The position numbers and the translations under genes were made by a program. Of a stretch of DNA of 64,000 nucleotides, positions 5,650 through 64,000 are shown piece by piece. Below the pieces are notes generated by a model. That model was not told the origin of the DNA and did not search any database. It worked only from the letters and a program-made list of their open reading frames with translations. The stretch comes from Eledone cirrhosa (taxonomy: Eukaryota). The stretch covers positions 217,248,001 through 217,312,000 of the forward strand of contig OZ024741.1 in assembly GCA_964016885.1 (NCBI GenBank), written 5' to 3'. Every line of letters begins with the position of its first letter. The first letter of the stretch is position 1.

Positions 5650-5785
5650 TTATCGTTTAACGGCTATTTACCACGCTAGTATGGTTTAGACAGGTTGTTT
5701 CATTTGAGACTAGTTGGGTAAGGAGACTGTGTCTTGCTCATACAGAACTGCTTCTGACTTGGCTTCTATGGCTGAATGCCAACCA

Positions 5786-30734: not shown

Positions 30735-33700
30735 ACGTAAAGGAAAACCATGATATTGTTGGGGAGAAGTGTGTCCGTAATGATAATGGTGTACTTGCCC
30801 TCACTGATGCTGATAAGAAGATAGCCTGGAAGTGTCACTACGAGAGACTATTAAATGAGGAGAATAAATGGGAAAAAGGTAGTCTGCCACAAATCGATCC
30901 AATAGAAGGACCAGCGGTGCAAGTTAAAGGTAGTATAATAAGTAAGGCAATCAAAGATATGAAGACAGGCAAGGCAGCTGGGCCTTAGGAGATAGTTGCT
31001 GAGATGTTGAAGGCATCTGGAATAGTGGGACATACTATGGTCACCCGTATAGTTAACCAAGTAATACAGAATGGGGTCATACCAAAAGACTGGCGTAGCA
31101 GCATCATCATTAACTGCTACAAGGGTAAAGGGGATGCTCTAGATAGAGGAAACTATAGAGGCATTAAGTTAGTTGACCAGGTCATGAAGGTCACAGAATG
31201 AGCTATAACGCAACTAATCAGAGAGCGAATTGATCTAGATCACAGGTTCTCAACCCATTTAGACCAAAACTTTTGTCCCTCGAAATCACGAAACGCCCCC
31301 CTACCCTATTTTTCCATTTTTCAATATACTACTGATTTTAATATCAGTAGATTACTAAAAAATTGATTAACAATATTCCAAAAATACCATTGCAGGCAGC
31401 TGAGAGTATAAATACATTCCTTGAAAGGAAATATATAAATTTAAAAAAAAGGAACATAAATGTTCTTTTTTATGAATAAGGACCAGTTGAATTTGTTATA
31501 TTGCCACCAGGCGATACCAGCTATTTTGAACATTTATATAAGAGCAACTCTGTCTATCCCAAGAGTGCTCTTATCTGCAAGAAAGTGGCAATTATATCAT
31601 TTCAAAGCTTTCCAATTTTCCCTTTAATGAAATGGACAGAATAAATGTTGATATCTAACTTGATGTCCCCTCTGCTTTGTGAGCTTAGAGACCACGGAAG
31701 AGGGTTTTCATGACCATGCGGGAGGGTATATTCATTAGTAAACGGTAAAATATATACAACAAATGAGTAAGTGAATTGTAGTAGATGGTTTCCAGTCCAG
31801 TCAGACTGCAACTACAAATAAAAAAATTGTTAATTTGCTTTGTAACAATAGCATATCCAAGTTTTCGGATAAATCAACTTACTTTAACTTTGACCTCATT
31901 TCAATGGGACCCTTGAGCTTCATGGAGTCTAGCTAACTCTTTAACGTCAGGCTGAATTTTTGTAAGATGTAGCCAGAGATCTCCACGTGTAATTACATAG
32001 TTATGCTATCTGCATGCTCATTCAAATGCATTCCCACTGGCTGTCTCAAAGACATATAAATATGGCTTATAAAACTTACCAAAGTAAAGAGCCTTCCAGC
32101 ACTCCTCTAGCGCCCCCCCCCCCCCAAAGCTGCAAACGCCCCACTAACACACCCCTAGAGTTCCGAACCGCCCCCGGAGGTGCATATGCCCCCCTTGAGA
32201 ACCTTTGATCTAGATGAAATGCAATTTGGGTAAAAGTACCACAGACACTTTTTTCCTTGTACGACAACTACAGGAGTACCTAGCTAAAAGTAAACTCTTC
32301 TACTTAGCTTTTGTAGACCTGGAGAAAGTCTTTGACAGAGTCCCCAGCTCCATTATCTGGTGGGCTCTTAGAAAATTAGGTGTAGATGAATGGCTTGTGA
32401 GAGCTATACAAGCTATGTATAAAGAAACAGTCAGTAAGGTTAGAATTAACAATGAATATTGTGAAGAATTTAGTGTAAAAGTTGGTGTTCATCAAGGCTC
32501 TGTTCTTAGCCCCCTCCTATTTATTATTGCCCTTCAGGTTATAACAGAGGAGTTCAAGACCAGCTGCCCATGGGAACTCCTATACGCAGATGATCTAAAG
32601 CTCATAGCTGAATCAATGGCTGAACTAGAGAAGAAATTCCAAACATGGAAGCATGGCCTAGAATCAAAAGACCTTAAAGTTAACTTGTCTAAGACTGAAG
32701 TTCTAGTTTGTAGAAAGGAAAATAGGGCACAGGTGCCCCCAGGGAAATGGCCATGCTCAGTGTGTAGGAAAGGAGTAGGCAGAAATTCAATTTTATGTCC
32801 CAAATGCAAAGTATGGGTACATAAAAGATGTAGTGGGATCACAGATAAACTATCTAAGAACGTTGACTTTATATGTGGCTGATGCTCAGGTGCAATAAGT
32901 AGCAAGTGTCCACAGGATACTAGCTCCTTCTATTGCCCAGATGGTTCTATAGAAATAGTGGACACTTTCCGTTACCTGGGTGACGAAATCAGCAGTGGTG
33001 GAGGGTGTTCTGAAAGTACAGTAGCCAGAGTCAGAATAGGATGGAAAAAGTTCAGAGAGCTTATACCGCTGTTGGCCACAAAAGGTTTCTCTCTAAAAAT
33101 GAAAGGCAGATTGTATGATGCCTGTATACGAACAGCAATGCTACATGGCAGTGAGACATGGGCATTACGTGCAGAGGACCTGCGCAGACTGGAAAGGAAC
33201 GAAGCATGCATGCTCCATTGGATGTGTAATACGTGAATGGCAAAGCATAAATGAACTAAGTGAGAAATTAGGAATAAGAGGGATCAGATGCTGTTTACTT
33301 GAAAGAAGACTACGTTGGTATGGTCACGTGATGCGCATGAAAGACGACAGCTGTATAAAAAAGTGCAGGGCGATCAAAATTGATGGTAGTTACGGAGTAG
33401 GTAGACCCTAGAAAAACCTAGGACGATCTGATAAATTCCGACCTTACACACTTACACCTCTCTAAGACAATGTCACTGGACCGAGATCTTTGGCGCTACG
33501 CAGTAATACAGAAGACCCGCCTTGCCTATGTACAAAGCGAAACCTAACCTACAGTCAGTAGGCACCTCTTAACCAAATATACACCCCAATCCACTACCCC
33601 TACCCTATCCTTCAACTTCCACCAACACCACCCTCTCTCTGTAAAGTTGGTACCACAACATCCAGTCCAAATAAATGAGATAATGAGATTGAGATCGTGT

Positions 33701-40397: not shown

Positions 40398-41132
40398 TTA
40401 AAATTGATGGAAGCTATAGAGTGGGTAGACCAAGAAAAACTTGGGACGAGGTGATAAAAACTGACCTTGCTTACTTACACCGCTCTAAGACAATGTCACT
40501 GGATCAAGATTTTTGGCACTATGCAGTTATACAGAAGACCCGCCTTCCCTTGCATACAAACCTACAGTCTGTAGGCACCTCTTAACCCAATATACACCCA
40601 CCCCACACCCCCTACTCCATCCTCCCATTTCCGTCCACTGTAAAGTGGTCATGTAGGTGTCACGACAAAAAAGCACGCAGTCCACGCTGTAAAGTGGTCA
40701 TGTAGGTGTCACGACAAAAAAGCACGCAGTCCACGCTGTAAAGTGGTCATGTAGGTGTCACGACAAAAAAGCACCCAGTCCACACTGTAAAGTGGTCGTG
40801 TAGGTGTCACGACAAAAAAGCACCCAGTCCACGCTGTAAAGTGGTCGTGTAGGTGTCACGACAAAAAAGCACCCAGTCCACGCTCTAAAGTGGTCATGTA
40901 GGTGTCACGACAAAAAAACACCCAGTCCACGCTGTAAAGTGGTCGTGTAGGTGTCACGACAAAAAAGCACCCAGTCCACGCTGTAAAGTGGTCGTGTAGG
41001 TGTCACGACAAAAAAGCACCCAGTCCACGCTGTAAAGTGGTCGTGTAGGAGACACAGTAAAAAGGATCCCAGTCTACATGGTAAAAAGGCTCACGTCCAA
41101 CCCATGCTAGTATGGAAGATGGACGTTAAACA
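40398..41132 (+). mobile_element. RTE 3' end containing an expanded 49-bp UTR minisatellite (~40633-41060)
   Basis: GRPRKTWDEVIK followed by ~8 copies of gtccacgctgtaaagtggtcgtgtaggtgtcacgacaaaaaagcaccca. Confidence 0.8.
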
Positions 41133-41347: not shown

Positions 41348-41454
<107 letters not shown>

Positions 41455-41614
41455 AACTGGAATAAATGCTCTGAAATAGCGATATATATGTGAATATAGA
41501 CATAGAATATTCGAAAATATTCTGTATGTTTATAATAAACATTTTGAAGACCTAATCGCTATAGAATAGAATACGTCACGTATTACAATTAGATTCTCGA
41601 TAAAAGCAAGGGAA

Positions 41615-41657
41615 GTAATCTACGCGTTTCATTCTTTTTAGAAATCATCAGGACTAC
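41615..41657 (-). ncRNA. Minimal type I hammerhead ribozyme motif (repeat unit 1)
   Basis: Minus strand reads gtagtc CTGATGA tttctaaaaagaat GAAA cgcg TA gattac. Confidence 0.75.
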
Positions 41658-41924
41658 ATATCCAGTGCTTTTATCGAGAATGACACAGCTAGAGACTTAT
41701 AGAATACTTAGCTGTGTACAGGAACTGGTTTGAAAGAGCGGTTGCCGGTCCGGCAGAAATTAGAAACTGGAATAAATGCTCTGAAATAGCGATATATATG
41801 TGAATATAGACATAGAATATTCGAAAATATTCTGTATGTTTATAATAAACATTTTGAAGACCTAATCGCTATAGAATAGAATACGTCACGTATTACAATT
41901 AGATTCTCGATAAAAGCAAGGGAA

Positions 41925-41967
41925 GTAATCTACGCGTTTCATTCTTTTTAGAAATCATCAGGACTAC
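41925..41967 (-). ncRNA. Minimal type I hammerhead ribozyme motif (repeat unit 2)
   Basis: Identical motif 310 bp from the unit 1 copy. Confidence 0.75.
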
Positions 41968-42222
41968 ATATCCAGTGCTTTTATCGAGAATGACACAGCT
42001 AGAGACTTATAGAATACTTAGCTGTGTACAGGAACTGGTTTGAAACAGAATATTTTCGAATATTCTATGTCTATATTCACATATATATCGCTATTTCAGA
42101 GCATTTATTCCAGTTTCTAATTTCTGCCGGACCGGCAACCGCTCTTTCAAACCAGTTCCTGTACACAGCTAAGTATTCTATAAGTCTCTAGCTGTGTCAT
42201 TCTCGATAAAAGCACTGGATAT

Positions 42223-42265
42223 GTAGTCCTGATGATTTCTAAAAAGAATGAAACGCGTAGATTAC
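42223..42265 (+). ncRNA. Minimal type I hammerhead ribozyme motif (inverted unit)
   Basis: gtagtc CTGATGA tttctaaaaagaat GAAA cgcg TA gattac. Confidence 0.75.
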
Positions 42266-42410
42266 TTCCCTTGCTTTTATCGAGAATCTAATTGTAATAC
42301 GTGACGTATTCTATTCTATAGCGATTAGGTCTTCAAAATGTTTATTATAAACATACAGAATATTTTCGAATATTCTATGTCTATATTCATATATATATAT
42401 ATATATACAT

Positions 42411-42452
<42 letters not shown>

Positions 42453-42508
42453 TTCGTTTCTGAATTTGTTTAGCAAGATTCTTTATCTGAAATCGTGTGT
42501 TGAAACCG

Positions 42509-42982
42509 ATATTGTTATACTTTGGGAGGGTCATGTTGCCAATAAGAAACACACGCACCAGTTGCTTTCACTTCAATTTATTATATATTTATAAATTTAT
42601 AAATTTACAAATCTACAAACTTATAAATTTCTGGTTGGTTGGTTGGTTCCACAACCAGATAGTTGTTTATATATAGTCATAGTCCTTTCGTCACACACTC
42701 TGTGACCTCTTCAGTGACTGGGGATTCCTTTCTTTGTTTCTGTGCCTTTCCTTTCTTCTATCCTACGCCATTTTGTTTCTGTGTGTGTGTTGTGTTCAGA
42801 GTGTGTGACGAAAGGACTATGACTATATATAAACAACTATCTGGTTGTGGAACCAACCAACCAACCAGAAATTTATAAGTTTGTAGATTTGTAAATTTAT
42901 AAATTTATAAATATATAATAAATTGAAGTGAAAGCAACTGGTGCGTGTGTTTCTTATTGGCAACATGACCCTCCCAAAGTAT

Positions 42983-46656: not shown

Positions 46657-46794
46657 CTTTAGGTGGACAAAACATCCGTGTACAAGCTATTTCACCATCT
46701 CCAACACAATGACATCTGTTACAGTCTACCATGAATGATTCTCCTGCTGTGAAGTTCTTTCCATCATGGTGGCACATTCCTCTGGTCATATTAA
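46657..46794 (-). CDS. Module exon A: VNMTRGMCHHDGKNFTAGESFMVDCNRCHCVGDGEIACTRMFCPPK
   Basis: Acceptor ttccag at 46800-46795; donor GTATAA at 46656-46651; 138 nt, open frame. Confidence 0.8.
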
Positions 46795-49700
46795 CTGGAA
46801 TATAATTTAGAAATATATATATCATCATCATCATCACCATCTTTAATATAGGTGTCCGACTTTTATTAGGACTTGGTGAACATACGACAAAACTGTTTCA
46901 GAAAGGAGGGATAAACATGCCAATCTATGTTTAGAATCCCGAGCAACGCCGGGCCATTCTGCTAGTGGGTATTAAATTGAAAAATTTTAACCATCAAAAA
47001 ACTAAAAAGCCCAGCTTAGGGCATAAATAAACTGCTACAGCCATTGTTAGTGGGGACCCCTACTGCATGGGGCCTGGAATAATTATCCCTTTGCCTCCAA
47101 TTATATGCAGCTCTGCACAATGCATGTGAGTGGAGTCCTGTTCTTGTCATATGACATATACACAATGTTTAGAGAGACAAATCCAGATTGGTGAGCCAGA
47201 GTAAGTCATCATATTTAGTAATGTGGATTACCTCAAGGTCACCGAGAATTCACCTGATGGGGCAAGCCCGGACAACATGCAGCACTGTCTGGTCAGGGTT
47301 GCTACAATCACATGCTGGGCTGTCCTTCATGTGGGTGGAGAAGTTCAAATATTGTGGGGACATTTTCATGATTGAATCGAAGGCAGGAGAATAAAATAAG
47401 AGCAATAATTGCAGGAGCTGGTGCAGTAATGTGCCAGCTTCAGCATTTGGTCATTAGAAAATGGGAGGTAGGTATAAAAGTAAAACTTGATATCTTCAAT
47501 GTGATGTTTGTACCAACCAACTCTTACCTATATTCATGCATTATGGGTAATGACTGAAATAATATGATTGTAAATACAAATAACCAAAATGTGGTTCCTC
47601 TGAAAGGTTTTGGAGTAACATTACTCAATGGGGTACATTGTTTAGAGAACAGGGAGACACTCCAGTTAGAAGCACAACTTCTTGAAATCAAGTGATCACA
47701 GCAAAGTTACAAGACACAGACACATATGTATGAATACCTTTAGGTGGACAAAACATCCGTGTACAAGCTACTTCACCATCTCCAACACAATGACATCTGT
47801 TACAGTCTACCATGAATGATTCTCCTGCAGTGAAGTTCTTTCCATCATGGTGGCACATCCCTCTGGTCATATTAACTGGAATATAATTTAGAAATATATA
47901 TCATCTTCATCATCATCCTCACCATCTTTAATATAGGTGTCCTCCTTTGCCAAAGATGTGTAGTCACCTCTCCTGTTCATAATCTTCATGAACAGAATTA
48001 ACATGCACAGCCATACTGGAAGAGGTATCAAAACTGATGGTTGTAGGGTCAGTTGGATGACATGTACAGACAACATGGGGCTACTTAACTCATCAGAGAG
48101 TGATCTCTAACATACACTTGATAGCTTTACTGCCGAGTGCTGTTCAGTAGGAATGAAATTAAATATTGTGAAGAGTGAGACTCTTGTCTTCTCAAGGAAG
48201 CCTGTACAGTGCACACTGCCAAGTTTGGATCTAAACCTTGGGTGACCCGAGTCATGTCAGATTTGGGGAGCCCCTGTACATAAATAATTTGAAATACACA
48301 GCAAGATCCCCAATTTTATATGTCAAAGTAATCTTGGCACAAGTAATTGGAATTGAAAAGTTATATATATAGGTATTATATTACAAAAATTTAACCATCC
48401 TAAAACTATAAAGCCCATTTGAGGGCACAAATAAATTACTCCGGCAGTTGCTTGTGGTGACCCCTACTGCAGTGGGCCTGGAATCATTGCCCCATTTACA
48501 CCTAATTAAATCTGGCTCTGCACACGGCATGTGAGTGGAGATTTCTTCTTGTCATATGACATACACAATGTTTAGAGAGACAAATCCAGATTGGTGAGCC
48601 AGAGTAAGTCATCATATTTAGTAATGTGAATTACATCAAGGTCACCAAGACTTCACGTGATGGGGCATTCCTGAACAACATACGGCACTGTCTGTTCAGG
48701 GTTGATATAATCACATGCTGGGCTGTCCTTTATGTGGGTGGAGAAGGTCAAATATTGTGGGGACATTTTCATGATTGATGGAAGGCAGGAGAATAAAGTA
48801 AGAGCAATAATTGCAGGAGCTGGTGCAGTAATGTGCCAGCTTCAGCATTTGTTCATTAGAAAATTGGAGGTAGGTATAAAAGTAAAACTTGATATCTTCA
48901 ATGTGATGTTTGTACCAACCAACTCTTACATATAGTCATGCATTATGGGTAATGAATGAAAGTATATGATTGTTAATACAAAGAGCCTAAATGTGGTTCC
49001 TCTAAAGGTCTTTGGAGTAACATTACTCAATGGGGTACATTGTTTAGAGAACAGGGAGACACTTCAGTTAGAAACATGATTTCTTGAAATCAAGTGATCA
49101 CATCAAAGTTACAAGACATACAGACACATATGTATGTATATCTTTAGGTGGACAAAACATCCGTGTACAAGCTACTTCACCATCTCCAACACAATGACAT
49201 CTGTTACAGTCTACCATGAATGATTCTCCTGTAGTGAAATTCTTTCCATCATGGTAGCACATCCTTCTGGTCATATTAACTGGAATATAATTTAGAAATA
49301 TATATCATCATCATCACCATCTATAATATAGGTGTCCTCCTTTGACAAACATGTGTAGGTCACCTCTCCTGTTCATAATCTTCATGAACAGAATTAACAT
49401 GCACAGCCACACTGGAAGTGGTATCAAAACTGATGGTTGTAGGGTCAGTCGGATGACATGTACAGACAACATGGGGCTACTTAACTCATCAGAGAGTGAT
49501 CTCTGAAATACACTTGATAGCTTTACTGCAGAGTGCTGTTCAGTAGGAATGAAATTCAATATTGTGAAGAGTGAGACTCTTGTCTTCTCAAGGAAGCCTG
49601 TACAGTGCACACTGCCAAGGTTGGATTTAAAACTTGGGTGACCCGAGTCATGTCAGATTTGGGGAGCCCCTGTACAGAATTAATTTGAAATACACAGCAA

Positions 49701-52700
49701 GATCCCCAATTTTATATGTCAAAGTAATCTTGGCACAAGTAATTGGAATTGAAAAGTTATATATATAGGTATTATATTAAACATCCTAAAACTATAAAGC
49801 CCATTTGAGGTCACAAATAAATTACTGCGGCAGTTGATTGTGGTGACCCCTACTGCAGTGGCCCTGGAATCATTGCCCCATTTACACCTAATTAAATCTG
49901 GCTCTGCACACGGCATATGAGTGGAATCTTGTTCTTTTCATATGACATATACACAATCTTTAGAGAGACAAATCCAGATTGGTGAGCCAGAGTAAGTCAT
50001 CATATTTAGTAATGTTGATTACATCAAGGTCACCAAGATTTCACCTGATGGGGCATTCCTGAACAACATACGGCACTGTCTGGTCAGGGTTGATATAATC
50101 ACATTCTGGGCTGTCCTTTATGTGGGTGGAGAAGTTCAAATATTGTGGCGCCATTCTCCTGATTGATGGAAGGCAGGAGAATAAATAAATTAAGAGCAAT
50201 AATTGCAGGAGCTGATGCAGTAATGTGCCAGCTTCAACATTTGGTCATTAGAAAATGGGAGGTAGGTATAAAAGTAAAACTTGATATCTTCAATGTGATG
50301 TTTGTACCAACCAACTCTTACCTATAGTCATGCATTATGGGTAATGACTGAAATAATATGATTGTAAATTCAAACAACCAAAATGTGGTTCCTCTGAAAG
50401 GTCTTTGGAGTAACATTACTCAATGGGGTACATTGTTTAGAGAACAGGGAGTCACTCCAGTTAGAAGCACAACTTCTTGAAATCAAGTGATCACAGCAAA
50501 GTTACAAGACATAGAGAAACATATGTATGTATACCTTTAGGTGGACAAAACATCCGTGTACAAGCTACTTCACCATCTCCAACACAATGACATCTGTTAC
50601 AGTCTACCATGAATGATTCTCCTGCAGTGAAGTTCTTTCCATCAAGGTGGCACATCCCTCTGGTTATATTAACTGGAATATAATTTAGAAGTAAATATAT
50701 CATCATCATCATCATCACTATCTTTAATATAGGTGTCCTCCTTTGACAAACATGTAGGTCACCTCTCCTGTTCATAATCTTCATGAACAGAATTAACATG
50801 CACAGCCACACTGGAAGTGGTATCAAAACTGATGGTTGTAGGGTCAGTTGGATGACATGTACAGACAACATGGGGCTACTTAACTCATCAGAGAGTGATC
50901 GCTGAAATACACTTGATAGCTTTACTGCCGAGTGCTGTTCAGTAGGAATGAAATTCAATATTGTGAAGAGTGAGACTCTTGTCTTCTCAAGGAAGCCTGT
51001 ACAGTGCACACTGCCAAGGTTGGATTTAAAACTTGGGTGACCCGAGTCATGTCAGATTTGGGGAGCCCCTGTACATAAATAATTTGAAATACACAGCAAG
51101 ATCCCCAATTTTATATGTCAAAGTAATCTTGGCACAAGTAATTGGAATTGAAAAGTTATATATATAGGTATTATATTAAAAAAATTTAACCATCCTAAAA
51201 CTATAAAGCCCATTTGAGGGCACAAATAAATTACTGCGGCAGTTGCTTGTGGTGACCCCTACTGCAGTGGGCCTGGAATCATTGCCCCATTTACACCTAA
51301 TTAAATCTGGCTCTGCACACGGCATGTGAGTGGAGATTTCTTCTTGTCATATGACATATACACAATGTTTAGAGAGACAAATCCAGATTGGTGAGCCAGA
51401 GTAAGTCATCATATTTAGTAATGTTGATTACATCAAGGTCACCAAGACTTCACGTGATGGGGCATTCCTGAACAACATACGGCACTGTCTGGTCAGGGTT
51501 GATATAATCACATGCTGGGCTGTCCTTTATGTGGGTGGAGAAGGTCAAATATTGTGGGGACATTTTCATGATTGATGGAAGGCAGGAGAATAAAGTAAGA
51601 GCAATAATTGCAGGAGCTGGTGCAGTAATGTGCCAGCTTCAGCATTTGTTCATTAGAAAATGGGAGGTAGGTATAAAAGTAAAACTTGATATCTTCAATG
51701 TGATGTTTGTACCAACCAACTCTTACATATAGTCATGCATTATGGGTAATGAATGAAAGTATATGATTGTTAATACAAAGAGCCTAAATGTGGTTCCTCT
51801 AAAGGTCTTTGGAGTAACATTACTCAATGGGGTACATTGTTTAGAGAACAGGGAGACACTTCAGTTAGAAACATGATTTCTTGAAATCAAGTGATCACAT
51901 CAAAGTTACAAGACATACAGACACATATGTATGTATATCTTTAGGTGGACAAAACATCCGTGTACAAGCTACTTCACCATCTCCAACACAATGACATCTG
52001 TTACAGTCTACCATGAATGATTCTCCTGTAGTGAAATTCTTTCCATCATGGTAGCACATCCTTCTGGTCATATTAACTGGAATATAATTTAGAAATATAT
52101 ATCATCATCATCACCATCTATAATATAGGTGTCCTCCTTTGACAAACATGTGTAGTCACCTCTCCTGTTCATAATCTTCATGAACAGAATTAACATGCAC
52201 AGCCACACTGGAAGTGGTATCAAAACTGATGGTTGTAGGGTCAGTCGGATGACATGTACAGACAACATGGGGCTACTTAACTCATCAGAGAGTGATCTCT
52301 GAAATACACTTGATAGCTTTACTGCAGAGTGCTGTTCAGTAGGAATGAAATTCAATATTGTGAAGAGTGAGACTCTTGTCTTCTCAAGGAAGCCTGTACA
52401 GTGCACACTGCCAAGGTTGGATTTAAAACTTGGGTGACCCGAGTCATGTCAGATTTGGGGAGCCCCTGTACAGAATTAATTTGAAATACACAGCAAGATC
52501 CCCAATTTTATATGTCAAAGTAATCTTGGCACAAGTAATTGGAATTGAAAAGTTATATATATAGGTATTATATTAAACATCCTAAAACTATAAAGCCCAT
52601 TTGAGGTCACAAATAAATTACTGCGGCAGTTGATTGTGGTGACCCCTACTGCAGTGGCCCTGGAATCATTGCCCCATTTACACCTAATTAAATCTGGCTC

Positions 52701-55700
52701 TGCACACGGCATATGAGTGGAATCTTGTTCTTTTCATATGACATATACACAATCTTTAGAGAGACAAATCCAGATTGGTGAGCCAGAGTAAGTCATCATA
52801 TTTAGTAATGTTGATTACATCAAGGTCACCAAGATTTCACCTGATGGGGCATTCCTGAACAACATACGGCACTGTCTGGTCAGGGTTGATATAATCACAT
52901 TCTGGGCTGTCCTTTATGTGGGTGGAGAAGTTCAAATATTGTGGCGCCATTCTCCTGATTGATGGAAGGCAGGAGAATAAATAAATTAAGAGCAATAATT
53001 GCAGGAGCTGATGCAGTAATGTGCCAGCTTCAACATTTGGTCATTAGAAAATGGGAGGTAGGTATAAAAGTAAAACTTGATATCTTCAATGTGATGTTTG
53101 TACCAACCAACTCTTACCTATAGTCATGCATTATGGGTAATGACTGAAATAATATGATTGTAAATTCAAACAACCAAAATGTGGTTCCTCTGAAAGGTCT
53201 TTGGAGTAACATTACTCAATGGGGTACATTGTTTAGAGAACAGGGAGTCACTCCAGTTAGAAGCACAACTTCTTGAAATCAAGTGATCACAGCAAAGTTA
53301 CAAGACATACAGACACATATGTATGTATACCTTTCAGACACATATGTATGTATACCTTTAGGTGGACAACGCATCTGTGAACAAGCTATTTCACCATCTC
53401 CAACACAATGACATCTGTTACAGTCTACCATGAATGATTCTCCTGCAGTGAAGTTCTTTCCATCATGGTGGCACATCCCTCTGGTCATATTAACTGGAAT
53501 ATAATTTAGAAGTAAATATATCATCATCATCATCATCATCATCATCACCATCTTTAATATAGGTGTCCTCCTTTGACAAACATGTGTAGGTCACCTCTCC
53601 TGTTCATAATCTTCATGAACAGAATTAACATGCACAGCCACACTGGAAGAGGTATCAAAACTGATGGTTGTAGGGTCAGTCAGATGACATGTACAGACAA
53701 CATGGGGCTACTTAACTCATCAGAGAGTGATCTCTGACATTCACATATGTATGTATACATTTAGGTGGACAACGCGTCCGTGTACAAGCTATTTCACCAT
53801 CTCCTACACAATGACATCTGTTACAGTCTACCATGAATGATTCTCCTGCACTGATGTTCATTCCATCATGGTAGCCGCCCACTCTGGTTATATTAACTGG
53901 AAAATAAGTTAGAAAAAAACCCAGCTATATATATATACCATCATCATCATCATTTTATGCCTGTAAGACTTGGGTTGGGCTGTTTGTCACAAATTACATA
54001 CGTACATACAAACATAATAATTGTTTCTACTTTTGACACAAGACAGCATTTACCCCAGTGCATTACTGGTACTTTATTTTATCAATCCTGTAAGGATGAA
54101 AGGCAAAGATCATCTCGGTGGGATTTGAACTCAGATCATAAAGGGCCGTAACTCTATGCTTCAAAGCATGGTGTCTAGCGCTCTACCAATACTGCCAATC
54201 CGCTATGTATTGCATACATACATAATAATGGCTGCATCTCAGTTTTGAGAATTGCCATCCATATGGCCCTGCTCTGTGTGCAGAAAAGGAGTAGGTAAAA
54301 ATTCCATTCTATGTACCAAATGCAAGCAATGGGTGTACAAGAGATGTAGTAGGATCTCAGGCAGGCTAACAAAGATTGTAGGCAAGTGTACATGGGCAGT
54401 AAGTAGCAAGAACCCTCAGGATACAACCACCTTCAAATGCTCAGATGGCTTGGTTGAAGTGGTAGATAGTTTCTGTTATCTATACCAAATCAGTAGTGGG
54501 GGAGGGTGCTCCAAAAGCACAGTAACCAGAGTGAGATCAGGTTGGAGAAAGTTCAGGGAGCTACTACCGTTACTAACTACAAAAGGTTTTTCTCAAAATG
54601 AAAGGCAGACTGTATGATACATGTATATGAACAACAATGTTGCACAAAAGAGAGACCTGGCACTATGTGCGGAGGACCTGTGAAAATTGGAAAGGAATGA
54701 AGCCTCCATGCTTCACTGGATGTGCAATAGCAATATACATGGACGGCAAAGTATCAATACACTGTGTGAGGAATTAAGCTTGAGAGAAATCAATTGTTGC
54801 ATGCAGGAGAGGAGATTGCATTGGTCTGGACATGTGATGCATATGAAGGATGACAGCTGTATAATAAGGTTCAGAGCGCTTAAAGTCGATGGTAGCTGTG
54901 GTATGGGCAGGACTAGGAAGACTTAGGATGAGGTAATAAAAGCTGACCTTGCATAATTACACCTCTCAAAGGCAATGACTCAGGACTGCAACCTCTGGCG
55001 CTATGCAGTTTTACAGAAGACCCACTCTCTATTGTTCTCGCGATGATGCTATACCTAGTAGGCAACACCTTCCTCAACCTTCTATCCCCTCTCATTCACC
55101 TCCCTCATCGGTAACCATACCTTCCCTACTACCCTGTCCACATTTTTTCCCCCAAGCCGCTCCACTCTCGCTAGTCAGATAAAAGTGCCTAGGCCTCACT
55201 GTGTTGTGTCGGTGACACAACAAAGGTGCTTAGTCTACACTGTAAAGAACATCCAGCACACACAGTAAAGTGATCATGTAGTTGTCACAACAAAAAGCAC
55301 CGAGCGCATGCAGTCAATGTGGTTGGCTTTAGGAAGGGCATCCAGCTATAGAAAACCATCCAGAAACTCTCCTATATAAGCAAGACATGGTCACTCGACC
55401 CAACTTGCCTCTAATTGGGACAAATCCATCTAAGCCGTGCTAGTGAGGAAGATAGACGTTAATCGACGATGATGATGATGATGATGAACTTTTTCTCATA
55501 CATGGGTGACACAAACATGATCTTTTAACACTGGCAAGGAGTTAGATTCTTTTCTGCATATGTTGTAGCGAAAGGTAAAAGAAAAGCCCCACGTGAATGT
55601 TGTTTAGATTAAGTGATGTTAGAAGCTCTTGAAGTGAAAAATTGCCTTGCACTAGATCAACCCCAATCTCTGAACAATGGTGACAGGTATCCCCAAAATA

Positions 55701-57204
55701 AGAACAGGTCAACATCATTAACTGCCATTGTGTTGAAGGCTTTATATCAGAGTGTTGTTCCTTCTCCTAGACTGATGTCCTAACAAGAACTAGGAGTTTC
55801 TCACTCCCAGTTGGCTAGCCATGCACTCGGGTACCCCACCAAGTATTTCCATGTCACTGGACACCCATACATAATACATTAATGATTTCTAGTATAAGCA
55901 CAAGGCCAGTAATTTGGGGGAAGGGGAAGGTAGATTAAATCGACCCGAGTACGTTACTGGTACTTTATTTTATCGACCCCATAAGGTTGAAAGGCAAAGT
56001 TAACCTTGGCGGGATTTGAATTCTGACCGTAAAGGGATGTAACTCTTTGCTGCAAAGCATGGTGTCCGACCCTCTACCAATACTGCCAGTTCACCGCCTT
56101 CATAATACATTAATACATATATTTATATATCATCATCATTATTATATATACATACACAGATACATATGTACATAAACTGATACACATAACTACATGCAAT
56201 GTTAAAAGTCACATATGTATATATACCTTTAGGTGGACCAAACCTTGTACAAACTATGTGACCTCTTTCAACACAATGACTTCTGTTACAGTCTATTCTA
56301 AATGATTCTTCTGATGATGATACATATATATATATATAATGAAACATATATATATGTATCATCATCAGTCCATGCTGTAAAGTGGTCATGTAGGGGACAT
56401 GTTAAATAGCACCCAGCACACACTGAAAAAGTTGTTGGTGTTAGGAAGGATATCCAGCCATAAAAACAAAGCCAAAATCAGGAGCAAATCACGGTCCCCT
56501 AACCTGATCTCTCACAAAGGGACAGCTTGTCGAACCTATGCTAGCATGGAAGATGGATGATAAACGATGATGATAATGTTGATGATGATGATGATCATGA
56601 TCATTATCATTTTATGTCTGTAATCCATGCTGACTTGGGTTTGGGGAGTTTGTCCCCAAATACATACATAGTAATGGCTGCATCTCAGTTTTGAGAATTG
56701 CCATCCCTTGACCTTTTTCTCATACGTGAATGTCACAAGGACTTCGATTCCTTTCTGCATATGTTGCAGCAAAAGCTAAGAAAAAATACCATGCTTACAC
56801 AACATATGTGAATGTCGTTGAGATTAAGCAATGCCTGTGCTTGAAGCTTTTTTAAATGAAGAAAGGCTTTGCACTGGACCAATCCCACTCTCTGAACAAT
56901 GGTGACAGGTATCCAAGAAGAACAGGTCAACATCATTGGCTGTCATTGAAGCACAGGTTTTACATCAGAGTTTTTCTTCTCCTAGAATGATGTCCTAATA
57001 AGAACTTAGGGTATTTTTCTCCCAACATGCTAACTGTGCACTTTGGCACCAAACCAAGTATTTCCATGCTCCTGCACATACATATATAATACACACATCA
57101 ATACATACATAATACATACATAAACACATACATGCATATATATCAACATCACCATCATCATCTGTACATGTACAGACACACATAACTACTTGCAATGTTA
57201 AAAG

Positions 57205-57238
<34 letters not shown>

Positions 57239-60200
57239 GGATTACAGACTGGCAACTCAAGCTAGCTGCGGACAAGTGTACCACCATGCATTTTAAGCAG
57301 AAAAACCCAGCATACACATATTCCCTCCACAACACCAATCTCAAGAAGCCTTGTTGTGAACGTGACCTGGGCATTATTGTCAACAGTGATTTGCATTGGA
57401 CCAGGCACATCTCTAAAATTGTCAACAAGGCTCTCCAGCTATCTATCTAAAGCTGTATATAGCTATGGTGCGTCCGAACTGAGAATTTGCATCACCACTT
57501 TGGAACTCCTATCTTGGTCAGAATATTGACCTCCTGGAATGTGTTCAGAGACGTGCAACCAAATGAATACCCTCCATCAGGCATCTACCATACTCTGAAT
57601 GCCTTGCTTCCTTGGGTATAGATACATTAAAGCTCTGATGTCTGGCAACTGACTTGGTAGATACTCACAAAATTATTAACCATCTTTCCAACAGCAACCC
57701 TGGGTGCGTTTTTGAATTCCATGTATCTAAAACCTGTGGACAAGCTTACAAAATCAGTTGTAGTGCACTTGAGCAGTGTATATAGTAATGTTCATTATTA
57801 TATTATTATTATATACCATTAGGTAGACAAAGCATCTGTGTACAAGCTACTTCACCATCTCCAACACAATGACATCTGTTACAGTCTACCATGAATGATT
57901 CTCCTGCAGTGAAATTCTTTCCATCATGGTAGCACATCCCTCTGGTCATATTAACTGGAATATAATTTAGAAATATATATCATCATCATTAATCCTCACC
58001 ATTTTTAATATAGGTGTCTGACTTTGGCAAAGATGTGTAGGTCACATCTCCTATTCATAATCTTCATGAACAGAATTAACATGCACAGCCATACTGGAAG
58101 TTGTATCACAACTGATGGTTGTAGGGTCAGTTGGATGACATGTACAGACAACATGGGGCTACTTAACTCATCAGAGAGTGATCTCTAACATACACTTGAT
58201 AGCTTTACTGCCGAGTGCTGTTCCGTAGGAATGAAATTCAATATTGTGAAGAGTGAGACTCTTGTCTTCTCTAGGAAGCCTGTACAGTGCACACTGCCAA
58301 GGTTGGATCTAATCCTTGGGTGACCCGGGTCATGTCAGATATGAGGAGACCCTGTACATAAATAATTTGAAATACACAGCAAGGCCCCTAATTTTATATA
58401 TCAAAGTAAGTTTGGCACAAGTAATTGGAATTGAAAAGTTATATATATAGGTATTAAATTGAAAAATGTTAACCATCCTAAAACTAAGAAGCCCAGCTAA
58501 GGGCACAAATAAGTTACTCTGGCATTTGCTGGTGGGGTCTCTCACTGAAGGGGGCCTGGAATAATTGCCTTACTAAATCCGGCAAAGAACACGTCATGTG
58601 ACTGGAGTCTTGTTCTTCTCATATGACATATACACAATGTTTAGTGAGACAGATCCAGATTGGTGAGCCAGAGTAAGTCATCATATTTAGTAATGTGAAT
58701 TACATCAAGGTCACCAAGACTTCACCTGGTAGGGCAATCCTGAACAACATACGGCACTGTCTGGTCAGGGTTGCTATAATCACATGCTGGGCTGTCCTTC
58801 ATGTGGGTGGAGAAGTTCAAATATTGTGGGGCCATTCTCCTGATTGATGGAAGGCAGAAGAATAAATTATGAGCAATAATTGCAGGAGCTGGTGCAGTAA
58901 TGTGCCAGCTTCAGCATTTGGTCATTAGAAAATGGGAGGTAGGTATAAAAGTAAAACTTGATATCTTCAATGTGATGTTTGTACCAACCAACTCTTACAT
59001 ATAGTCATGCATTATGGGTAATGACTGAAATAATATTATTGTAAATGCAAACAATCAAAACGTGGTTCCTCTGGAAGGTCTTTGGAGTAACATTACTGAA
59101 TGGGGTACATTGTTTAGAGAACAGGGTGTCACTCCAGGTAGAAGCACGACCTCTCGAAATCAAGTGATCACAGCAAAGTAACAAGACATACAGAAACATA
59201 TGTATGTATACCTTTAGGTTGACAAAACATCCGTGTACAAGCTACTTCACCATCTCCAACACAATGACATCTGTTACAGTCTACCATGAATGATTCTCCT
59301 GCAGTGAAGTTCCTTCCATCATGGTAGCACATCCCTCTGGTCATATTAACTGGAATATAATTTAGAAATATATATCATCATCATCATCATCATCATCACC
59401 ATCTTTAATATAGGTGTCTTCCTTTTACAAACATGTGTAGGTCACCTCTCCTGTTCATAATCTTCATGAACAGAATTAACATGCACAGCCACACTGGAAG
59501 TGGTATCACAACTGATGGTTGTAGGGTCAGTTGGATGACATGTACAAACAACATGGGGCTACTTAACTCATCAGAGAGTGATCTCTAACATACACTTGAT
59601 AGCTTTACTGCCGAGTATTGTTCACTAGGAATGAAATTCAATATTGTGAAGAGTGAGACTCTTGTCTTCTCAAGGAAGCCTGTACAGTGCACACTGCCAA
59701 GGTTGGATTTAAACCTTGGGTGACCCGACTCATGTCAGATTTGGGGAGCCCCTGTACGTAAATAATTTGAAATACACAGCAAGATCCCTAATTATATATA
59801 TCAAAGTAATCTTGGCACAAGTAATTGGAATTGAAAAGTTATATATATAGGTATTATATTAAAAAGATTTAAACCATCCTAAAACTAAAAAGCCCAGTTG
59901 AGGGCACAAATAAATTACTCTGGCAGTTGCTTGTGGGGACCCTTATTGCAGTGGGTCTGGGATCATTGCCCCATTTACACCTAATTAAATCTGGCTCTGC
60001 ACACTGCATATGAGTGGAGTCTTGTTCTTCTCATATGACATATACACAATGTTTGGAGAGACAAATCCAGATTGGTGAGCCAGAGTAAGTCATCATATTT
60101 AGTAATGTGGATTACATCAAGGTCACCTAAACTTCACCTGGTAGGGCAATCCTGAACAACATACGGCACAGTCTGGTCAGGGTTGTTATAATCACATGCT

Positions 60201-63200
60201 GGACTGTCCTTCATGTGTGTGGAGAAGTTCAAATATTGTGGGGCCATTCTCCTGATTGATGGAAGGCAGGACAATAAAGTAAGAGCAATAATTGCAGGAG
60301 CTGGTGCAGTAATGTGCCAGCTTCAGCATTTGGTCATTAGAAAATGGGAGGTAGGTATAAAAGTAAAACTTGATATCTTCAATGTGATGTTTGTACCAAC
60401 CAACTCTTACCTATAGTCATGCATTATGGGTAATGAATGAAATAATATGATTGTAAATACAAACAACCAAAATGTGGTTCCTCTGGAAGGTCTTTGGAGT
60501 AACATTACTCAATGGGGTACATTGTTTAGAGAACAGGGAGTCACTCCAGGTAGAAGCATGACTTCTTGAAATCAAGTGATCACAGCAAAGTGACAAGACA
60601 TACAGAAACATATGTATGTGTACCTTTAGGTGGACAAAACATCCGTGTACAAGCTACTTCACCATCTCCAACACAATGACATCTGTTACAGTCTACCATG
60701 AATGATTCTCCTGCAGTGAAGTTCTTTCCATCATGGTAGCACATCCCTCTGGTTATATTAACTGGAATATAATTTAGAAGTAAATATATCATCATGATCA
60801 TCATCACCATCTTTAATATAGGTGTCCTCCTTTAACAAAGATGTGTAGGTCACCTCTCCTGTTCATAATCTTCATGAACAGAATTAACATGCACAGCCAT
60901 ACTGGAAGTGGTATCAAAACTGATGGTTGTAGGGTGAGTCAGATGACATGTACAGACAACATGGGGCTACTTAACTCATCAGAGAGTGATCTCTGACATT
61001 CACATATGTATGTATACCTTTAGGTGGACAACGCATCCGTGTACAAGCTATTTCACCATCTCCTACACAATGACATCTGTTACAGTCTACCATGAATGAT
61101 TCTCCTGCACTGACGTTCATTCCATCATGGTAGCAGCCCACTCTGGTTATATTAACTGGAAAATAAGTTAGAAAAAAACCCAGCTATATATATATACCAT
61201 CATCATCATCATTGTATGCCTGTAAGACTTGGGTTGGGCTGTTTGTCACTAATCACATATGTAGATACAAACATAATAATTGTTTCTACTTTTGACACAA
61301 GACAGCATTTACACCAGTGCATTACTGGTACTTTATTTTATCAATCCTGTAAGGATGAAAGGCAAAGATAATCTCGGTGGGATTTGAACCCAGATCATAA
61401 AGGGCCGTAACTCTATGCTTCAAAGCATGGTGTCTGGCGCTCTACCAATACTGCCAATCCGCTATGTATTGCATACATACATAATAATGGCTACATCTCA
61501 GTTTTGAGAATTGCCAACCATATGGCCCTGCTCTGTGTGCAGAAAAGGAGGAGGTAGAAATTCCATTCTATGTACCAAATGCAAGCAATGGGTGCACAAG
61601 AGATGTAGTAGGATCTCAGGCAGGCTAACAAAGATTGTAGGTTTTACTCATGGCAGGTGTACATGGGCAGTAAGTAGCAAGAACCCTCAGGATACAACCA
61701 CCTTCAAATGCTCAGATGGCTTGGTTGAAGTGGTAGATAGTTTCTGTTATCTATACCAAATCAGTAGTGGGGGAGGGTGCTCCAAAAGCACAGTAACCAG
61801 AGTGAGATCAGTTTGGAGAAAGTTCAGGGAGCTACTACCGTTACTAACTACAAAAGGTTTTTCTCAAAATGAAAGGCAGACTGTATGATACATGTATATG
61901 AACAACAATGTTGCACAAAAGAGAGACCTGGCACTATGTGCGGAGGACCTGTGAAAATTGGAAAGGAATGAAGCCTCCATGCTTCACTGGATGTGCAATA
62001 GCAATATACATGGACGGCAAAGTATCAATACACTGTGTGAGGAATTAAGCTTGAGAGAAATCAATTGTTGCATGCAGGAGAGGAGATTGCATTGGTCTGG
62101 ACATGTGATGCATATGAAGGATGACAGCTGTATAATAAGGTTCAGAGCGCTTAAAGTCGATGGTAGCTGTGGTATGGGCAGGACTAGGAAGACTTAGGAT
62201 GAGGTAATAAAAGCTGACCTTGCATAATTACACCTCTCAAAGGCAATGACTCAGGACTGCAACCTCTGGCGCTATGCAGTTTTACAGAAGACCCACTCTC
62301 TATTGTTCTCGGGATGATGCTATACCTAGTAGGCAACACCTTCCTCAACCTTCTATCCCCTCTCATTCACCTCCCTCATCGGTAACCATACCTTCCCTAC
62401 TACCCTGTCCACATTTTTTCCCCCAAGCCGCTCCACTCTCGCTAGTCAGATAAAAGTGCCTAGGCCTCACTGTGTTGTGTCGGTGACGCAACAAAGGTGC
62501 TCAGTCTACACTGTAAAGAACATCCAGCCCACACAGTGAAGTGATCATGTAGGTGTCACAACAAAAAGCACCGAGCACATGCAGTCAATGTGGTTGGCTT
62601 TAGGAAGGGCATCCAGCTATAGAAAACCAGCCAGAAACTCTCCTATATAAGCAAGACATGGTCACTCGACCCAACTTGCCTCTAATTGGGACAAATCCAT
62701 CTAAGCCGTGCTAGTGAGGAAGATAGACGTTAATCGACGATGATGATGATGATGATGAACTTTTTCTCATACATGGGTGACGCAAACATGATCTTTTAAC
62801 ACTGGCAAGGAGTTAGATTCTTTTCTGCATATGTTGTAGCGAAAGGTAAAAGAAAAGCCCCACGTGAATGTTGTTTAGATTAAGTGATGTTAGAAGCTCT
62901 TGAAGTGAAAAATTGCCTTGCACTAGATCAACCCCAATCTCTGAACAATGGTGACAGGTATCCCCAAAATAATAACAGGTCAACATCATTAACTGCCATT
63001 GTGTTGAAGGCTTTATATCAGAGTGTTGTTCCTTCTCCTAGACTGATGTCCTAACAAGAACTAGGAGTTTCTCACTCCCAGTTGGCTAGCCATGCACTCG
63101 GGTACCCCACCAAATATTTCCATGTCACTGGACACCCATACATAATACATTAATGATTTCTAGTATAAGCACAAGGCCAGTAATTTGGGGGAAGGGGAAG

Positions 63201-63581
63201 GTAGATTAAATCGACCCCAGTACGTTACTGGTACTTTATTTTATCGACCCCATAAGGTTGAAAGGCAAAGTTAAACTCGGCGGGATTTGAACTCAGACCG
63301 TAAAGGGATGTAACTCTTTGCTGCAAAGCATGGTGTCCGACCCTCTACCAATACTGCCAGTTCACCGCCTTCATAATACATTAATACATATATTTATATA
63401 TCATCATCATTATTATATATACATACACAGATACATATGTACATAAACTGATACACATAACTACATGCAATGTTAAAAGTCACATATGTATATATACCTT
63501 TAGGTGGACCAAACCTTGTACAAACTATGTGACCTCTTTCAACACAATGACTTCTGTTACAGTCTATTCTAAATGATTCTT
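46657..63581 (-). CDS. Multi-exon gene (partial; 5' end lies beyond the window) encoding a tandem poly-domain Cys-rich protein, pacifastin-like serine protease inhibitor / half-VWC repeats
   Basis: 11 full-length 138-nt exons, each preceded by ...ttccag; 9 are followed by a GT donor (mostly AAAG|GTA). All are phase 1-1 and stop-free, and they concatenate in frame as (V)NMTRGMCHHDGKNFTAGESFMVDCNRCHCVGDGEIACTRMFCPPK. Two truncated copies are also present. The CNxCxC-x3-G-x3-CT-x3-C pattern matches the pacifastin core. Confidence 0.78.
47738..47875 (-). CDS. Module exon B (...EVACTRMFCPPK)
   Basis: Intact AG acceptor and GTATTC donor; 138 nt. Confidence 0.8.
49142..49279 (-). pseudogene. Module exon C (VNMTRRMCYHDGKNFTTGE...CTRMFCPPK) with mutated donor; probable skipped exon or pseudo-exon
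   Basis: Frame open and acceptor intact, but the donor reads AAAG|ATATAC instead of GTATAC (position 49141). Confidence 0.65.
50535..50672 (-). CDS. Module exon D (VNITRGMCHLDGK...VACTRMFCPPK)
   Basis: Intact splice sites; 138 nt. Confidence 0.8.
51939..52076 (-). pseudogene. Module exon E, duplicate of exon C with the same GT>AT donor mutation
   Basis: Sequence matches 49142-49279 at an offset of 2797 bp; donor reads ATATAC. Confidence 0.65.
53356..53493 (-). CDS. Module exon F (...EIACSQMRCPPK)
   Basis: Intact splice sites; variant reactive loop; the donor region is duplicated (25 bp). Confidence 0.78.
53759..53896 (-). CDS. Module exon G (VNITRVGGYHDGMNISAGE...IACTRTRCPPK), first Cys lost
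   Basis: AG and GT intact (AAAT|GTATAC); TGC>GGC relative to the paralogous exon at 61018-61155. Confidence 0.65.
54255..55487 (+). mobile_element. Intronic RTE 3' fragment (antisense to the host gene)
   Basis: WPCSVCRKG..CTKCKQW..SSGGGCS..RLHWSGHV; (GAT)n tail. Confidence 0.85.
56227..56310 (-). pseudogene. Truncated divergent module (EESFRIDCNRSHCVERGHIVCTRFGPPK)
   Basis: 3' half of the module with donor GTATAT; the 5' part is replaced by (TA)/(TCA) repeats; two further Cys lost. Confidence 0.55.
57243..57790 (+). mobile_element. CR1-like LINE 3' fragment (related pieces at ~2140-2500 and ~45470-45860 minus)
   Basis: DWQLKLAADKC..ERDLGIIVNSDLHWTRHISKIVNKA..LECVQRRATK. Confidence 0.75.
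57817..57954 (-). CDS. Module exon I (...EVACTQMLCLPN)
   Basis: Intact acceptor; donor AATG|GTATAT; 138 nt. Confidence 0.72.
59212..59349 (-). CDS. Module exon J (CYHDGRNFTA...CTRMFCQPK)
   Basis: Intact splice sites; 138 nt. Confidence 0.78.
60624..60761 (-). CDS. Module exon K (VNITRGMCYHDGK...CTRMFCPPK)
   Basis: Intact acceptor; donor GTACAC; 138 nt. Confidence 0.78.
61018..61155 (-). CDS. Module exon L (VNITRVGCYHDGMNVSAGE...IACTRMRCPPK)
   Basis: Intact splice sites; all six Cys present; 138 nt. Confidence 0.78.
61515..62758 (+). mobile_element. Duplicate of the intronic RTE fragment
   Basis: Near-identical to 54255-55487. Confidence 0.85.
63498..63581 (-). pseudogene. Truncated divergent module, duplicate of 56227-56310
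   Basis: Same sequence at an offset of 7271 bp. Confidence 0.55.
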
Positions 63582-64000
63582 CTGATGATGATACATATAT
63601 ATATATATGATGAAACATATATATATGTATCATCATCAGTCCATGCTGTAAAGTGGTCATGTAGGGGACATGTTAAATAGCACCCAGCACACACTGAAAA
63701 AGTTGTTGGTGTTAGGAAGGATATCCAGCCAGAAAAACCAAGCCAAAATCGGGAGCAAATCACGGTCCCCTAACCTGATCTCTCACAAAGGGACAGCTTG
63801 TCGAATCTATGCTAGCATGGAAGATGGATGATAAACGATGATGATAATGTTGATGATGATGATGATCATGATCATTATCATTTTATGTCTGTAATCCATG
63901 CTGACTTGGGTTTGGGGAGTTTGTCCCCAAATACATACATAGTAATGGCTGCATCTCAGTTTTGAGAATTGCCATCCCTTGACCTTTTTCTCATACATGA

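What the first reader, a model, noticed from the sequence alone, without database searches (positions are those of the whole stretch)
53356..61155. Variation concentrated in the predicted reactive loop
Seen: the core GESFMVDCNRCHCVGDGE is the same in all full-length copies, while the four residues between Cys5 and Cys6 read TRMF, SQMR, TRTR, TQML or TRMR. The N-terminal segment also varies. Established: in pacifastins this segment is P2-P2', and P1=Arg implies trypsin-type specificity. Inference: specificity is diversifying (P1 Arg versus Gln) inside an otherwise homogenised array, as seen in host-pathogen or predator-prey inhibitor evolution.
Basis: partly seen in the sequence, partly recalled or inferred. 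Interest (0 to 1): 0.7.

Follow-up and report, generated by a model that had tools for sequence, protein, structure and literature searches.

The report
43-copy pacifastin exon array, ordinary variation
These are six of 43 nearly identical exons that likely encode the heads of a secreted protease inhibitor; their predicted protease-binding loop does vary, but not significantly more than the neighbouring introns, so the variation likely reflects ordinary mutation and copying rather than selection for new targets.

Summary
They belong to a 64-kb array of 43 near-identical pacifastin-type exons, plus three older exons and a candidate signal-peptide exon upstream. Arg39 is the predicted P1.

The diversification reading is not supported here. 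The loop varies more than the core (6/12 vs 12/63 sites, p=0.03) but not more than the N-terminus (p=0.52) or introns (5/12 vs 230/1051, p=0.15; CpG-aware P=0.21). The P1 codon holds the majority exon's only CpG, and its variants (CAG x6, TGG x1) are the two deamination products. Five of six Gln copies descend from one cassette exon. All 23 exons with two standard flanking introns keep Arg, and five of the finding's six exons lie at irregular cassette edges. Across the array 34 of 43 keep the core. Exon N:S (35:8) matches neutrality.

Power is low (12 nt; a CpG-blind test gives P=0.07). Expression is untested.

The parts
61018..61155 (-). Pacifastin-type exon, cassette-edge (D) class, loop TRMR
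   Evidence: flanking introns 4443 and 256 nt
60624..60761 (-). Pacifastin-type exon, majority class, loop TRMF; used for the fold and trypsin-complex models
59212..59349 (-). Pacifastin-type exon, majority class, loop TRMF; the only one of the six with two standard flanking introns
57817..57954 (-). Pacifastin-type exon, Gln class, loop TQML (P1 codon CAG at 57836-57838); majority-type core with Gln-class 3' end, a likely conversion mosaic
53897..57816 (-). 3.9-kb cassette intron following the Gln-class exon, with a reverse-transcriptase-like element fragment (recalled likeness) and a degenerate half exon; 97.8-99.0% identical to its three sister cassettes
56211..56313 (-). Degenerate 3' half of an exon (no Cys1 region; Cys3 and Cys6 lost); a second copy lies at 63482-63584
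53759..53896 (-). Pacifastin-type exon, D class, loop TRTR, Cys1 replaced by Gly (5 Cys)
53356..53493 (-). Pacifastin-type exon, loop SQMR (P1 codon CAG at 53375-53377); one base from the SRMR exon further 5' in the array
51939..52076 (-). Exon, loop TRMF, donor reads AT instead of GT
50535..50672 (-). Exon, loop TRMF
49142..49279 (-). Exon, loop TRMF, donor reads AT instead of GT
47738..47875 (-). Exon, loop TRMF
46657..46794 (-). Last (3'-most) array exon found, loop TRMF
46657..64000 (-). Window part (11 of 43 exons) of the tandem array; 1.4-kb exon+intron unit with larger cassettes. It continues beyond the window to G000:C2:217358969, then three older exons (to 217376432) and a candidate signal-peptide exon starting at 217385712

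Best explanation
The six exons are part of a 43-copy tandem array of pacifastin-type exons that likely encodes a secreted, many-headed inhibitor predicted to block trypsin-like proteases, and their loop differences likely come from CpG mutation and from old variants sheltered from gene conversion at cassette edges, not from selection for new specificity. Shown: the exon count, the phase 1-1 structure, the family match, the codon changes, and the link between non-Arg P1 and irregular flanks. Predicted: the fold, and Arg39 as P1 docking in trypsin. Inferred: a 1.4-kb exon+intron unit was amplified by unequal crossing-over, and larger cassettes carrying a Gln-class and a D-class exon were amplified with it. 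Exchange between copies then levels the middle of the exon, while the exon ends next to non-homologous intron keep their differences (3' end in the Gln class, 5' end in the D class). Purifying selection on the cysteine core may add to this. Splicing, secretion and inhibition are untested.
For: Loop not above intron: 5/12 vs 230/1051, p=0.15; 14-15% of 908 intronic 12-nt windows match or exceed it; CpG-aware expectation 3.4 vs 5 seen, P=0.21. The P1 codon is the only CpG of the majority exon and shows both deamination products, CAG x6 and TGG x1, and no other change; 6 of 10 majority-CpG positions in the intron vary against 224 of 1041 others; CpG observed/expected is 0.19 in the array. All 5 TQML exons share a private downstream intron, 96.9-99% identical where compared. 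P1 is Arg in 23 of 23 exons with two standard introns; all 7 non-Arg P1 fall among the 20 with an irregular flank. Gln-class differences from the majority lie mainly in the 3' half (33 of 43 summed over 5 copies), D-class mainly in the 5' half (40 of 64 over 5 copies) (copies not independent). Four-gamete incompatibility rises from 0.17 to 0.39 with distance, showing exchange between units. Exon N:S is 35:8, as expected without selection (p=0.59). The core is low in both N (6 vs 11.6 expected) and S (1 vs 2.6) alleles. Trypsin model: score 0.90, best of 3 controls 0.36, runs agree in at least 98% of contacts, partner pLDDT at least 82; the mark was reached by 51 of 78 solved and 2 of 108 mismatched pairs (eukaryotes: 39 of 65 and 2 of 126); a like complex (2xtt) is solved, so it shows likeness only.
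Against: All 6 loop alleles change an amino acid, and loop pN is 0.12-0.16 against intron diversity 0.046. The CpG-blind test gives 5 vs 2.2 expected, P=0.07. P2' (Phe 23, Arg 14, Leu 6) is the most variable residue of the exon and occurs also in standard units (19 TRMF, 4 TRMR). Twelve bases give little power, and the intron comparison left out 14 of 43 exons, including all TQML and D-class copies. Whether CAG or CGG came first in the TQML lineage is unresolved, since the older exons have AAG, AAG and AGG. Gln is a recurring P1 in relatives: 57 of 862 domains and four TQMM exons in a sister gene. That sister gene also shows non-CpG P1 change.
Confidence: 0.55

Rival explanations
1. Diversifying selection on the loop: the array keeps Arg, Gln and Trp heads and Phe/Arg/Leu at P2' because a mix of specificities is useful, with CpG mutation only supplying the variants.
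For: Loop alleles are all amino-acid-changing; P=0.07 against CpG-blind intron rates; loop vs core p=0.03. Among the older exons loop pN (0.20-0.63) exceeds core pN (0.14-0.33). Sister gene on C26: P1 codons TGG/ATA/AGA/AGA, loop 4/12 vs upstream intron 6/299, p=0.0002 (chosen after seeing it). High P1 variability is typical of the family (PMC2689174 section 14).
Against: No excess over introns once CpG is counted. No non-CpG change at P1 in 43 copies. Arg in 23 of 23 standard units. Loop pN is not above loop pS in most comparisons with the older exons, and P1 stays basic in all 3. The effect of Gln at P1 was described as unknown; it may simply weaken trypsin binding.
Confidence: 0.22
2. The array is largely redundant or decaying DNA: a recent amplification under little selection, with many exons skipped or not expressed, so that loop differences have no functional meaning.
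For: N:S equals the neutral expectation. Five of 43 exons are damaged: two lack a cysteine, one lacks its acceptor, two have AT donors. Four degenerate half exons lie in cassettes. No stop in 43 alleles (P=0.12) and only 2 cysteine losses (P=0.13) are not significant signs of constraint.
Against: The core has 1 shared polymorphism in 63 sites vs 152 in 1051 in introns (p=0.001) and lies in the lowest 0.8% of intron windows by diversity. No stop codon in any exon, and no internal indel against 17 gap intervals in the intron alignment. 38 of 43 exons have six cysteines and AG/GT ends. A signal-peptide-like exon lies upstream.
Confidence: 0.17
3. The modules are FnI/VWC-like binding or scaffold modules, not inhibitors, so the 'reactive loop' premise does not apply.
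For: The model is a five-strand module whose best fold matches are mucin, von Willebrand factor and fibronectin type I modules (Foldseek none at E<=0.001; VIA-align best Z 5.7, rmsd 2.2, 41 aligned). Pfam VWC scores 27.5-29.6 around its cut-off of 27.6. Named homologues are labelled kielin/chordin-like or VWFC.
Against: Pacifastin_I scores 10-17 bits higher than VWC. The best solved sequence matches are locust SGPI-1 inhibitors. P1 is Arg or Lys in 39 of 46 exons, unlike the loops in the intronless tandem genes on C1 and C451. The trypsin model passes, with the memory caveat.
Confidence: 0.06

Closest known systems
Pacifastin family, 'ancestral' lineage (PMC13388995)
   Same: Six cysteines, C2-N-x-C3, Gly in the C4-C5 loop, C5-X-P1-P1'-X-C6 loop, N-terminal hairpin with Gly and aromatic residues; the R-M pair is listed among the dominant trypsin-like pairs in molluscs.
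   Different: Here 43 near-identical one-domain exons in one array with no other domain type found; the three older exons begin with Lys-Arg, which the array copies replace with an N-x-T sequon.
Locust pacifastin inhibitors SGPI-1/SGTI, PMP-C (PDB 2xtt, 2f91, 1gl1)
   Same: Closest solved sequences (E=2.7e-6 for 2xtt_A); same loop register, CTRM at P3-P1' in 2xtt.
   Different: They have a short N-terminus and are released as single peptides at dibasic sites; the array heads have 16 residues between Cys1 and Cys2 and no dibasic site.
Trichoplax TAPP-1 precursor (PMC2689174)
   Same: About the same head count (42), mostly trypsin-type P1, almost no dibasic sites.
   Different: Two exons per domain there, one here; the passages read do not describe its domains as near-identical recent copies.
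Molluscan multi-domain homologues such as Mercenaria XP_053408337.1
   Same: 54-57% identical domains with TRMA, TQMA, TLMA and TKKA loops in one chain.
   Different: Interleaved with other cysteine-rich modules; not an orthologue. No close orthologue was found.
Pacifastins of the Octopus vulgaris posterior salivary gland (PMC7693380)
   Same: Same family, reported as highly expressed in that gland.
   Different: No sequence link was tested; the tissue and even the taxon of this window are inferred, not shown.

Membership tests
Pacifastin domain (Pfam PF05375) | Profile score above the curated cut-off | tested here: met
   39.8-45.7 bits vs 27.9 in 5 of 5 exons scanned
Pacifastin domain (Pfam PF05375) | Six cysteines, C2-N-x-C3, Gly in the C4-C5 loop, four residues between C5 and C6 | tested here: met
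   41 of 43 exons have six Cys; two have five; features from PMC13388995 section 6
Pacifastin domain (Pfam PF05375) | Disulfides C1-C4, C2-C6, C3-C5 | not tested
   The model (mean pLDDT 85.4) was not inspected for bond pairs
Pacifastin domain (Pfam PF05375) | Canonical loop binds a serine protease with P1 at the active site | tested here: inconclusive
   Predicted only: 0.90 vs best control 0.36, residue 39 against trypsin residue 200; a like complex is solved
Pacifastin domain (Pfam PF05375) | Measured protease inhibition | not testable with these tools
   Needs an assay
Pacifastin precursor gene | First exon encodes a signal peptide | tested here: inconclusive
   A hydrophobic 16-codon phase-1 exon lies 9.3 kb upstream of the first domain exon; splicing not shown
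Conventional (arthropod-type) pacifastin lineage | Short N-terminus without a hairpin; dibasic sites between domains | tested here: not met
   16 residues between C1 and C2 with a modelled hairpin; Lys-Arg in 3 older exons, in 0 of 43 array exons
Ancestral pacifastin lineage | N-terminal beta-hairpin extension with Gly and Tyr/Phe | tested here: met
   Strands 6-9 and 12-15 in the model, G11, Y8, F14
Full VWC domain (PF00093) | Whole profile, ten cysteines (number recalled) | tested here: not met
   Only profile positions 1-38 of 57 match; six Cys per exon
Inhibitor arrays with a positively selected reactive loop | Loop substitution density above neutral sites, with CpG accounted for | tested here: not met
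   p=0.15, P=0.21; CpG-blind P=0.07; low power
Inhibitor arrays with a positively selected reactive loop | Site-wise dN/dS above 1 across orthologues | not testable with these tools
   No orthologue found; exchange between copies breaks tree-based tests

The most novel reading that the evidence does not exclude
This animal diversifies P1 in its tandem pacifastin arrays by selection. The sister gene on C26 does so by non-CpG changes against near-identical introns. The 43-head array keeps Gln and Trp heads at cassette edges, where non-homologous introns shield them from conversion, inside an uncleaved, glycosylated polymer that arose by loss of the Lys-Arg processing site.
Probability: 0.2. Interest if true: 0.55.

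Novelty: new member of a known kind. Interest (0 to 1): 0.27.

Why it matters
As found, it is a caution: a variable inhibitor loop beside a constant core can arise from a CpG at P1, gene conversion and the choice of a cassette-edge stretch, with no selection shown. The array is a large, recent example of a known family. If selection were shown here or in the C26 sister gene, it would give a within-genome series of near-identical heads that differ mainly at P1. That series could test what Gln, Trp and Ile at P1 do; for amide residues this was described as unknown in PMC2689174.

Tried and rejected
Expression: no RNA holder listed. The three runs laid are contigs of one sample that cover introns; they say nothing on transcription and their depths were not used as copy numbers. 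Orthologues: one exon gave no hit, the six-exon profile gave 7 hits at 37-60% identity and 1147 distant hits, of which the best 150 were listed; the best match among 155 held proteins was 53-58% identical. The ESM Atlas gave no result. Earlier scan notes: none. Fold searches could not separate pacifastin from FnI/VWC modules. Tree-based site tests were not run because units exchange sequence. An open frame in the last 250 nt of the unit intron was considered as a linker exon and left unresolved: it shows no lower diversity than the rest of the intron. No 3' terminal exon was identified. Literature searches listed no paper whose title or abstract opening describes this array or selection on cephalopod pacifastin loops; most subscription papers are not in that library, and supplements (which may hold molluscan domain lists) were not read.
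Full report
What is there. The finding covers six 138-nt exons on the minus strand, each flanked by AG and GT and in phase 1-1, each encoding one six-cysteine module. Eleven such exons lie in the window (46657-61155). A search of the own genome and 14 fetched neighbouring stretches show 43 near-identical exons over 64 kb (G000:C2:217294657-217358969), three older exons further 5' (40-56% identical to the majority exon) and a hydrophobic 16-codon exon with a phase-1 donor 9.3 kb beyond them. The basic unit is exon plus about 1.27 kb of intron. Four larger cassettes interrupt it, each with a Gln-class exon, a 3.9-4.4 kb intron holding a degenerate half exon, a D-class exon and an intron of about 260 nt. 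The genome has 3.0 Gb; my guess that it is a cephalopod rests on recalled repeat types and comes from no call. Named homologues are molluscan (3 clusters) and myxobacterial (1 cluster) among 7 looked up.

Family. Pfam Pacifastin_I scores 39.8-45.7 bits (cut-off 27.9) in 5 of 5 exons scanned; VWC scores 27.5-29.6 (cut-off 27.6) over profile positions 1-38 of 57. The best solved sequence matches are locust inhibitors. The model has five strands, mean pLDDT 85.4, and fold searches rank FnI, von Willebrand factor and mucin modules first without a clear winner. This fits the 'ancestral' pacifastin lineage with an N-terminal hairpin (PMC13388995: abstract, passages, sections 6, 9, 11 read). A predicted complex of the TRMF head with bovine trypsin scores 0.90 against a best control of 0.36, with at least 98% contact agreement and partner pLDDT of at least 82; residue 39 touches trypsin residue 200 (the catalytic serine, recalled). 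The mark was reached by 51 of 78 solved and 2 of 108 mismatched pairs. A like complex (2xtt) is solved, so the pass shows likeness, not binding.

Checking the observation. In the six named exons the core string is intact and the loops are as stated. Across all 43 exons the core is intact in 34; loops are TRMF 23, TRMR 9, TQML 5, TRTR 2, TRML, TWMR, SRMR and SQMR 1 each; P1 is Arg 36, Gln 6, Trp 1. Variable sites are loop 6/12, N-terminus 18/48, core 12/63: loop vs core p=0.03, loop vs N-terminus p=0.52. The most variable four-codon window is codons 5-8 (8 sites), not the loop (6).

Calibration on introns. I aligned the 29 of 43 units whose downstream intron is 1200-1320 nt; the 14 left out include all TQML and D-class exons. 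In 1051 gap-free intron columns 230 vary. The loop has 5/12 (p=0.15), and 14-15% of 908 intronic 12-nt windows equal or exceed it. With CpG and non-CpG rates taken from the intron, 3.4 sites are expected, P=0.21. A CpG-blind count of amino-acid-changing alleles gives 5 vs 2.2, P=0.07, the result most against my reading. The core is the outlier: 1 shared polymorphism in 63 sites vs 152 in 1051 (p=0.001), low for silent as well as replacement alleles. These tests treat sites as independent and copies are related, so p-values are approximate.

Origin of the P1 variants. The P1 codon CGG holds the only CpG of the majority exon. Its variants are CAG and TGG, the two deamination products, and nothing else. 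The array is CpG-depleted (observed/expected 0.19). The five TQML exons share a private downstream intron, so they count as one lineage; whether Gln is derived there is unresolved, because the older exons have AAG, AAG and AGG. The SQMR exon differs from the SRMR exon by one base, and TWMR is a singleton: three events at most. All 23 exons with two standard introns have Arg; the 7 others lie among 20 exons with an irregular flank, and 5 of the finding's 6 exons are of that kind. Units exchange sequence (four-gamete incompatibility 0.17 rising to 0.39), and the TQML exon at 57817 has a majority core with a Gln-class 3' end. Gln-class differences sit mostly in the 3' half and D-class differences mostly in the 5' half, each beside non-standard intron. 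I infer that conversion levels the middle of the exon and leaves the edges.

Selection on the exon as a whole. Minor alleles are 35 replacement and 8 silent, as expected without selection (p=0.59); no stops (P=0.12) and two cysteine losses (P=0.13) are not significant. Five of 43 exons are damaged. Against the older exons pN/pS is about 0.75-1.06, and P1 stays basic in all three. The array may be young and weakly constrained, or a mix of constraint and selection that these counts cannot separate.

Gln is P1 in 57 of 862 homologous domains, and 32 of 142 multi-domain homologues mix Gln with Arg or Lys (155 proteins examined). A sister gene on contig C26 alternates four TQMM exons, which differ at 1 silent site in 136, with four exons whose P1 codons are TGG, ATA, AGA and AGA. 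There the loop has 4/12 variable sites against 6/299 in the upstream intron (p=0.0002) and 5/129 in the rest of the exon (p=0.003), with no CpG involved; all 9 variable exon sites fall in codons whose amino acid differs. This test was chosen after seeing the pattern, rests on four copies and perhaps two or three mutational events, and concerns another locus.

Comparison with what is known. Many-headed pacifastin precursors, exon duplication and variable P1 are described: Trichoplax TAPP-1 has 42 domains, and 17 different P1 residues were counted in the family (PMC2689174: passages and section 14 read). Pacifastins are reported in the Octopus vulgaris posterior salivary gland (PMC7693380: passages). 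PMC5921304 (passages) reports pacifastin expansion in triatomines; the passages shown held no site test on pacifastins. Other papers were seen only as search listings, and no supplements were read. One local feature is unusual: the three older exons start with Lys-Arg, while array exons have an N-x-T sequon there, and 42 of 43 carry two sequons. That suggests an uncleaved glycosylated chain; it is untested.

Verdict. A real, recently amplified pacifastin-type exon array; new member of a known kind. The loop variation is real but not shown to exceed neutral and CpG-driven change, and the chosen coordinates overstate it. Interest 0.27; the C26 sister gene deserves its own look.

Noticed in passing
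L015:7545 to L016:5700 (G000:C26, about 14,022,500-14,030,700, + strand): Sister pacifastin-type gene with four near-identical exons whose P1 codons are TGG, ATA, AGA, AGA beside almost invariant introns, alternating with four protein-identical TQMM exons; a stronger candidate for P1 diversification than the window's array.
   Followed up: partly
L006:334-468, L007:2623-2757, L007:6296-6430 (minus) versus all array exons: The three older exons begin with Lys-Arg; the array copies have an N-x-T sequon there, so the processing site appears lost at the start of the expansion.
   Followed up: partly
L008, about 5664-5712 (G000:C2:217385712, minus): Candidate signal-peptide exon of the array gene, 16 codons with a phase-1 GTGAGT donor.
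   Followed up: partly
window 51939 and 49142 (exon 3' ends), 53759-53896; L003 and neighbours: Damaged copies: two AT donors, Cys1 to Gly, and beyond the window one Cys4 to Ser and one exon without its acceptor.
   Followed up: yes
L017-L019 (G000:C26, 14.06-14.08 Mb and 10.03 Mb): Further one-domain-per-exon pacifastin-type genes with loops TKMM (x4), TEMM, TLKA, TKML (x2), TLKF.
   Followed up: no
L020:1700-4200 and L021:1900-3750 (C451, C1; further copies on C1, C440, C157, C4): Intronless genes with 17-22 tandem six-cysteine modules at 37-residue spacing and mostly non-basic loops (TNNP, TNKQ), repeated many times in the genome.
   Followed up: no
window 20395-22077: 49-bp minisatellite, 34 copies, 96% matches; related 47-49 bp arrays at 5783-6200 and 40638-41049.
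   Followed up: no
window 24715-27100, 32214-33411, 54249-54617, 61508-61888: Broken reading frames that look like LINE endonuclease/reverse-transcriptase fragments (likeness recalled, not searched).
   Followed up: no
window 41454-42700: Exact 310-bp tandem duplication and nearby inverted copies of the same segment, possibly an assembly or transposon-end feature.
   Followed up: no
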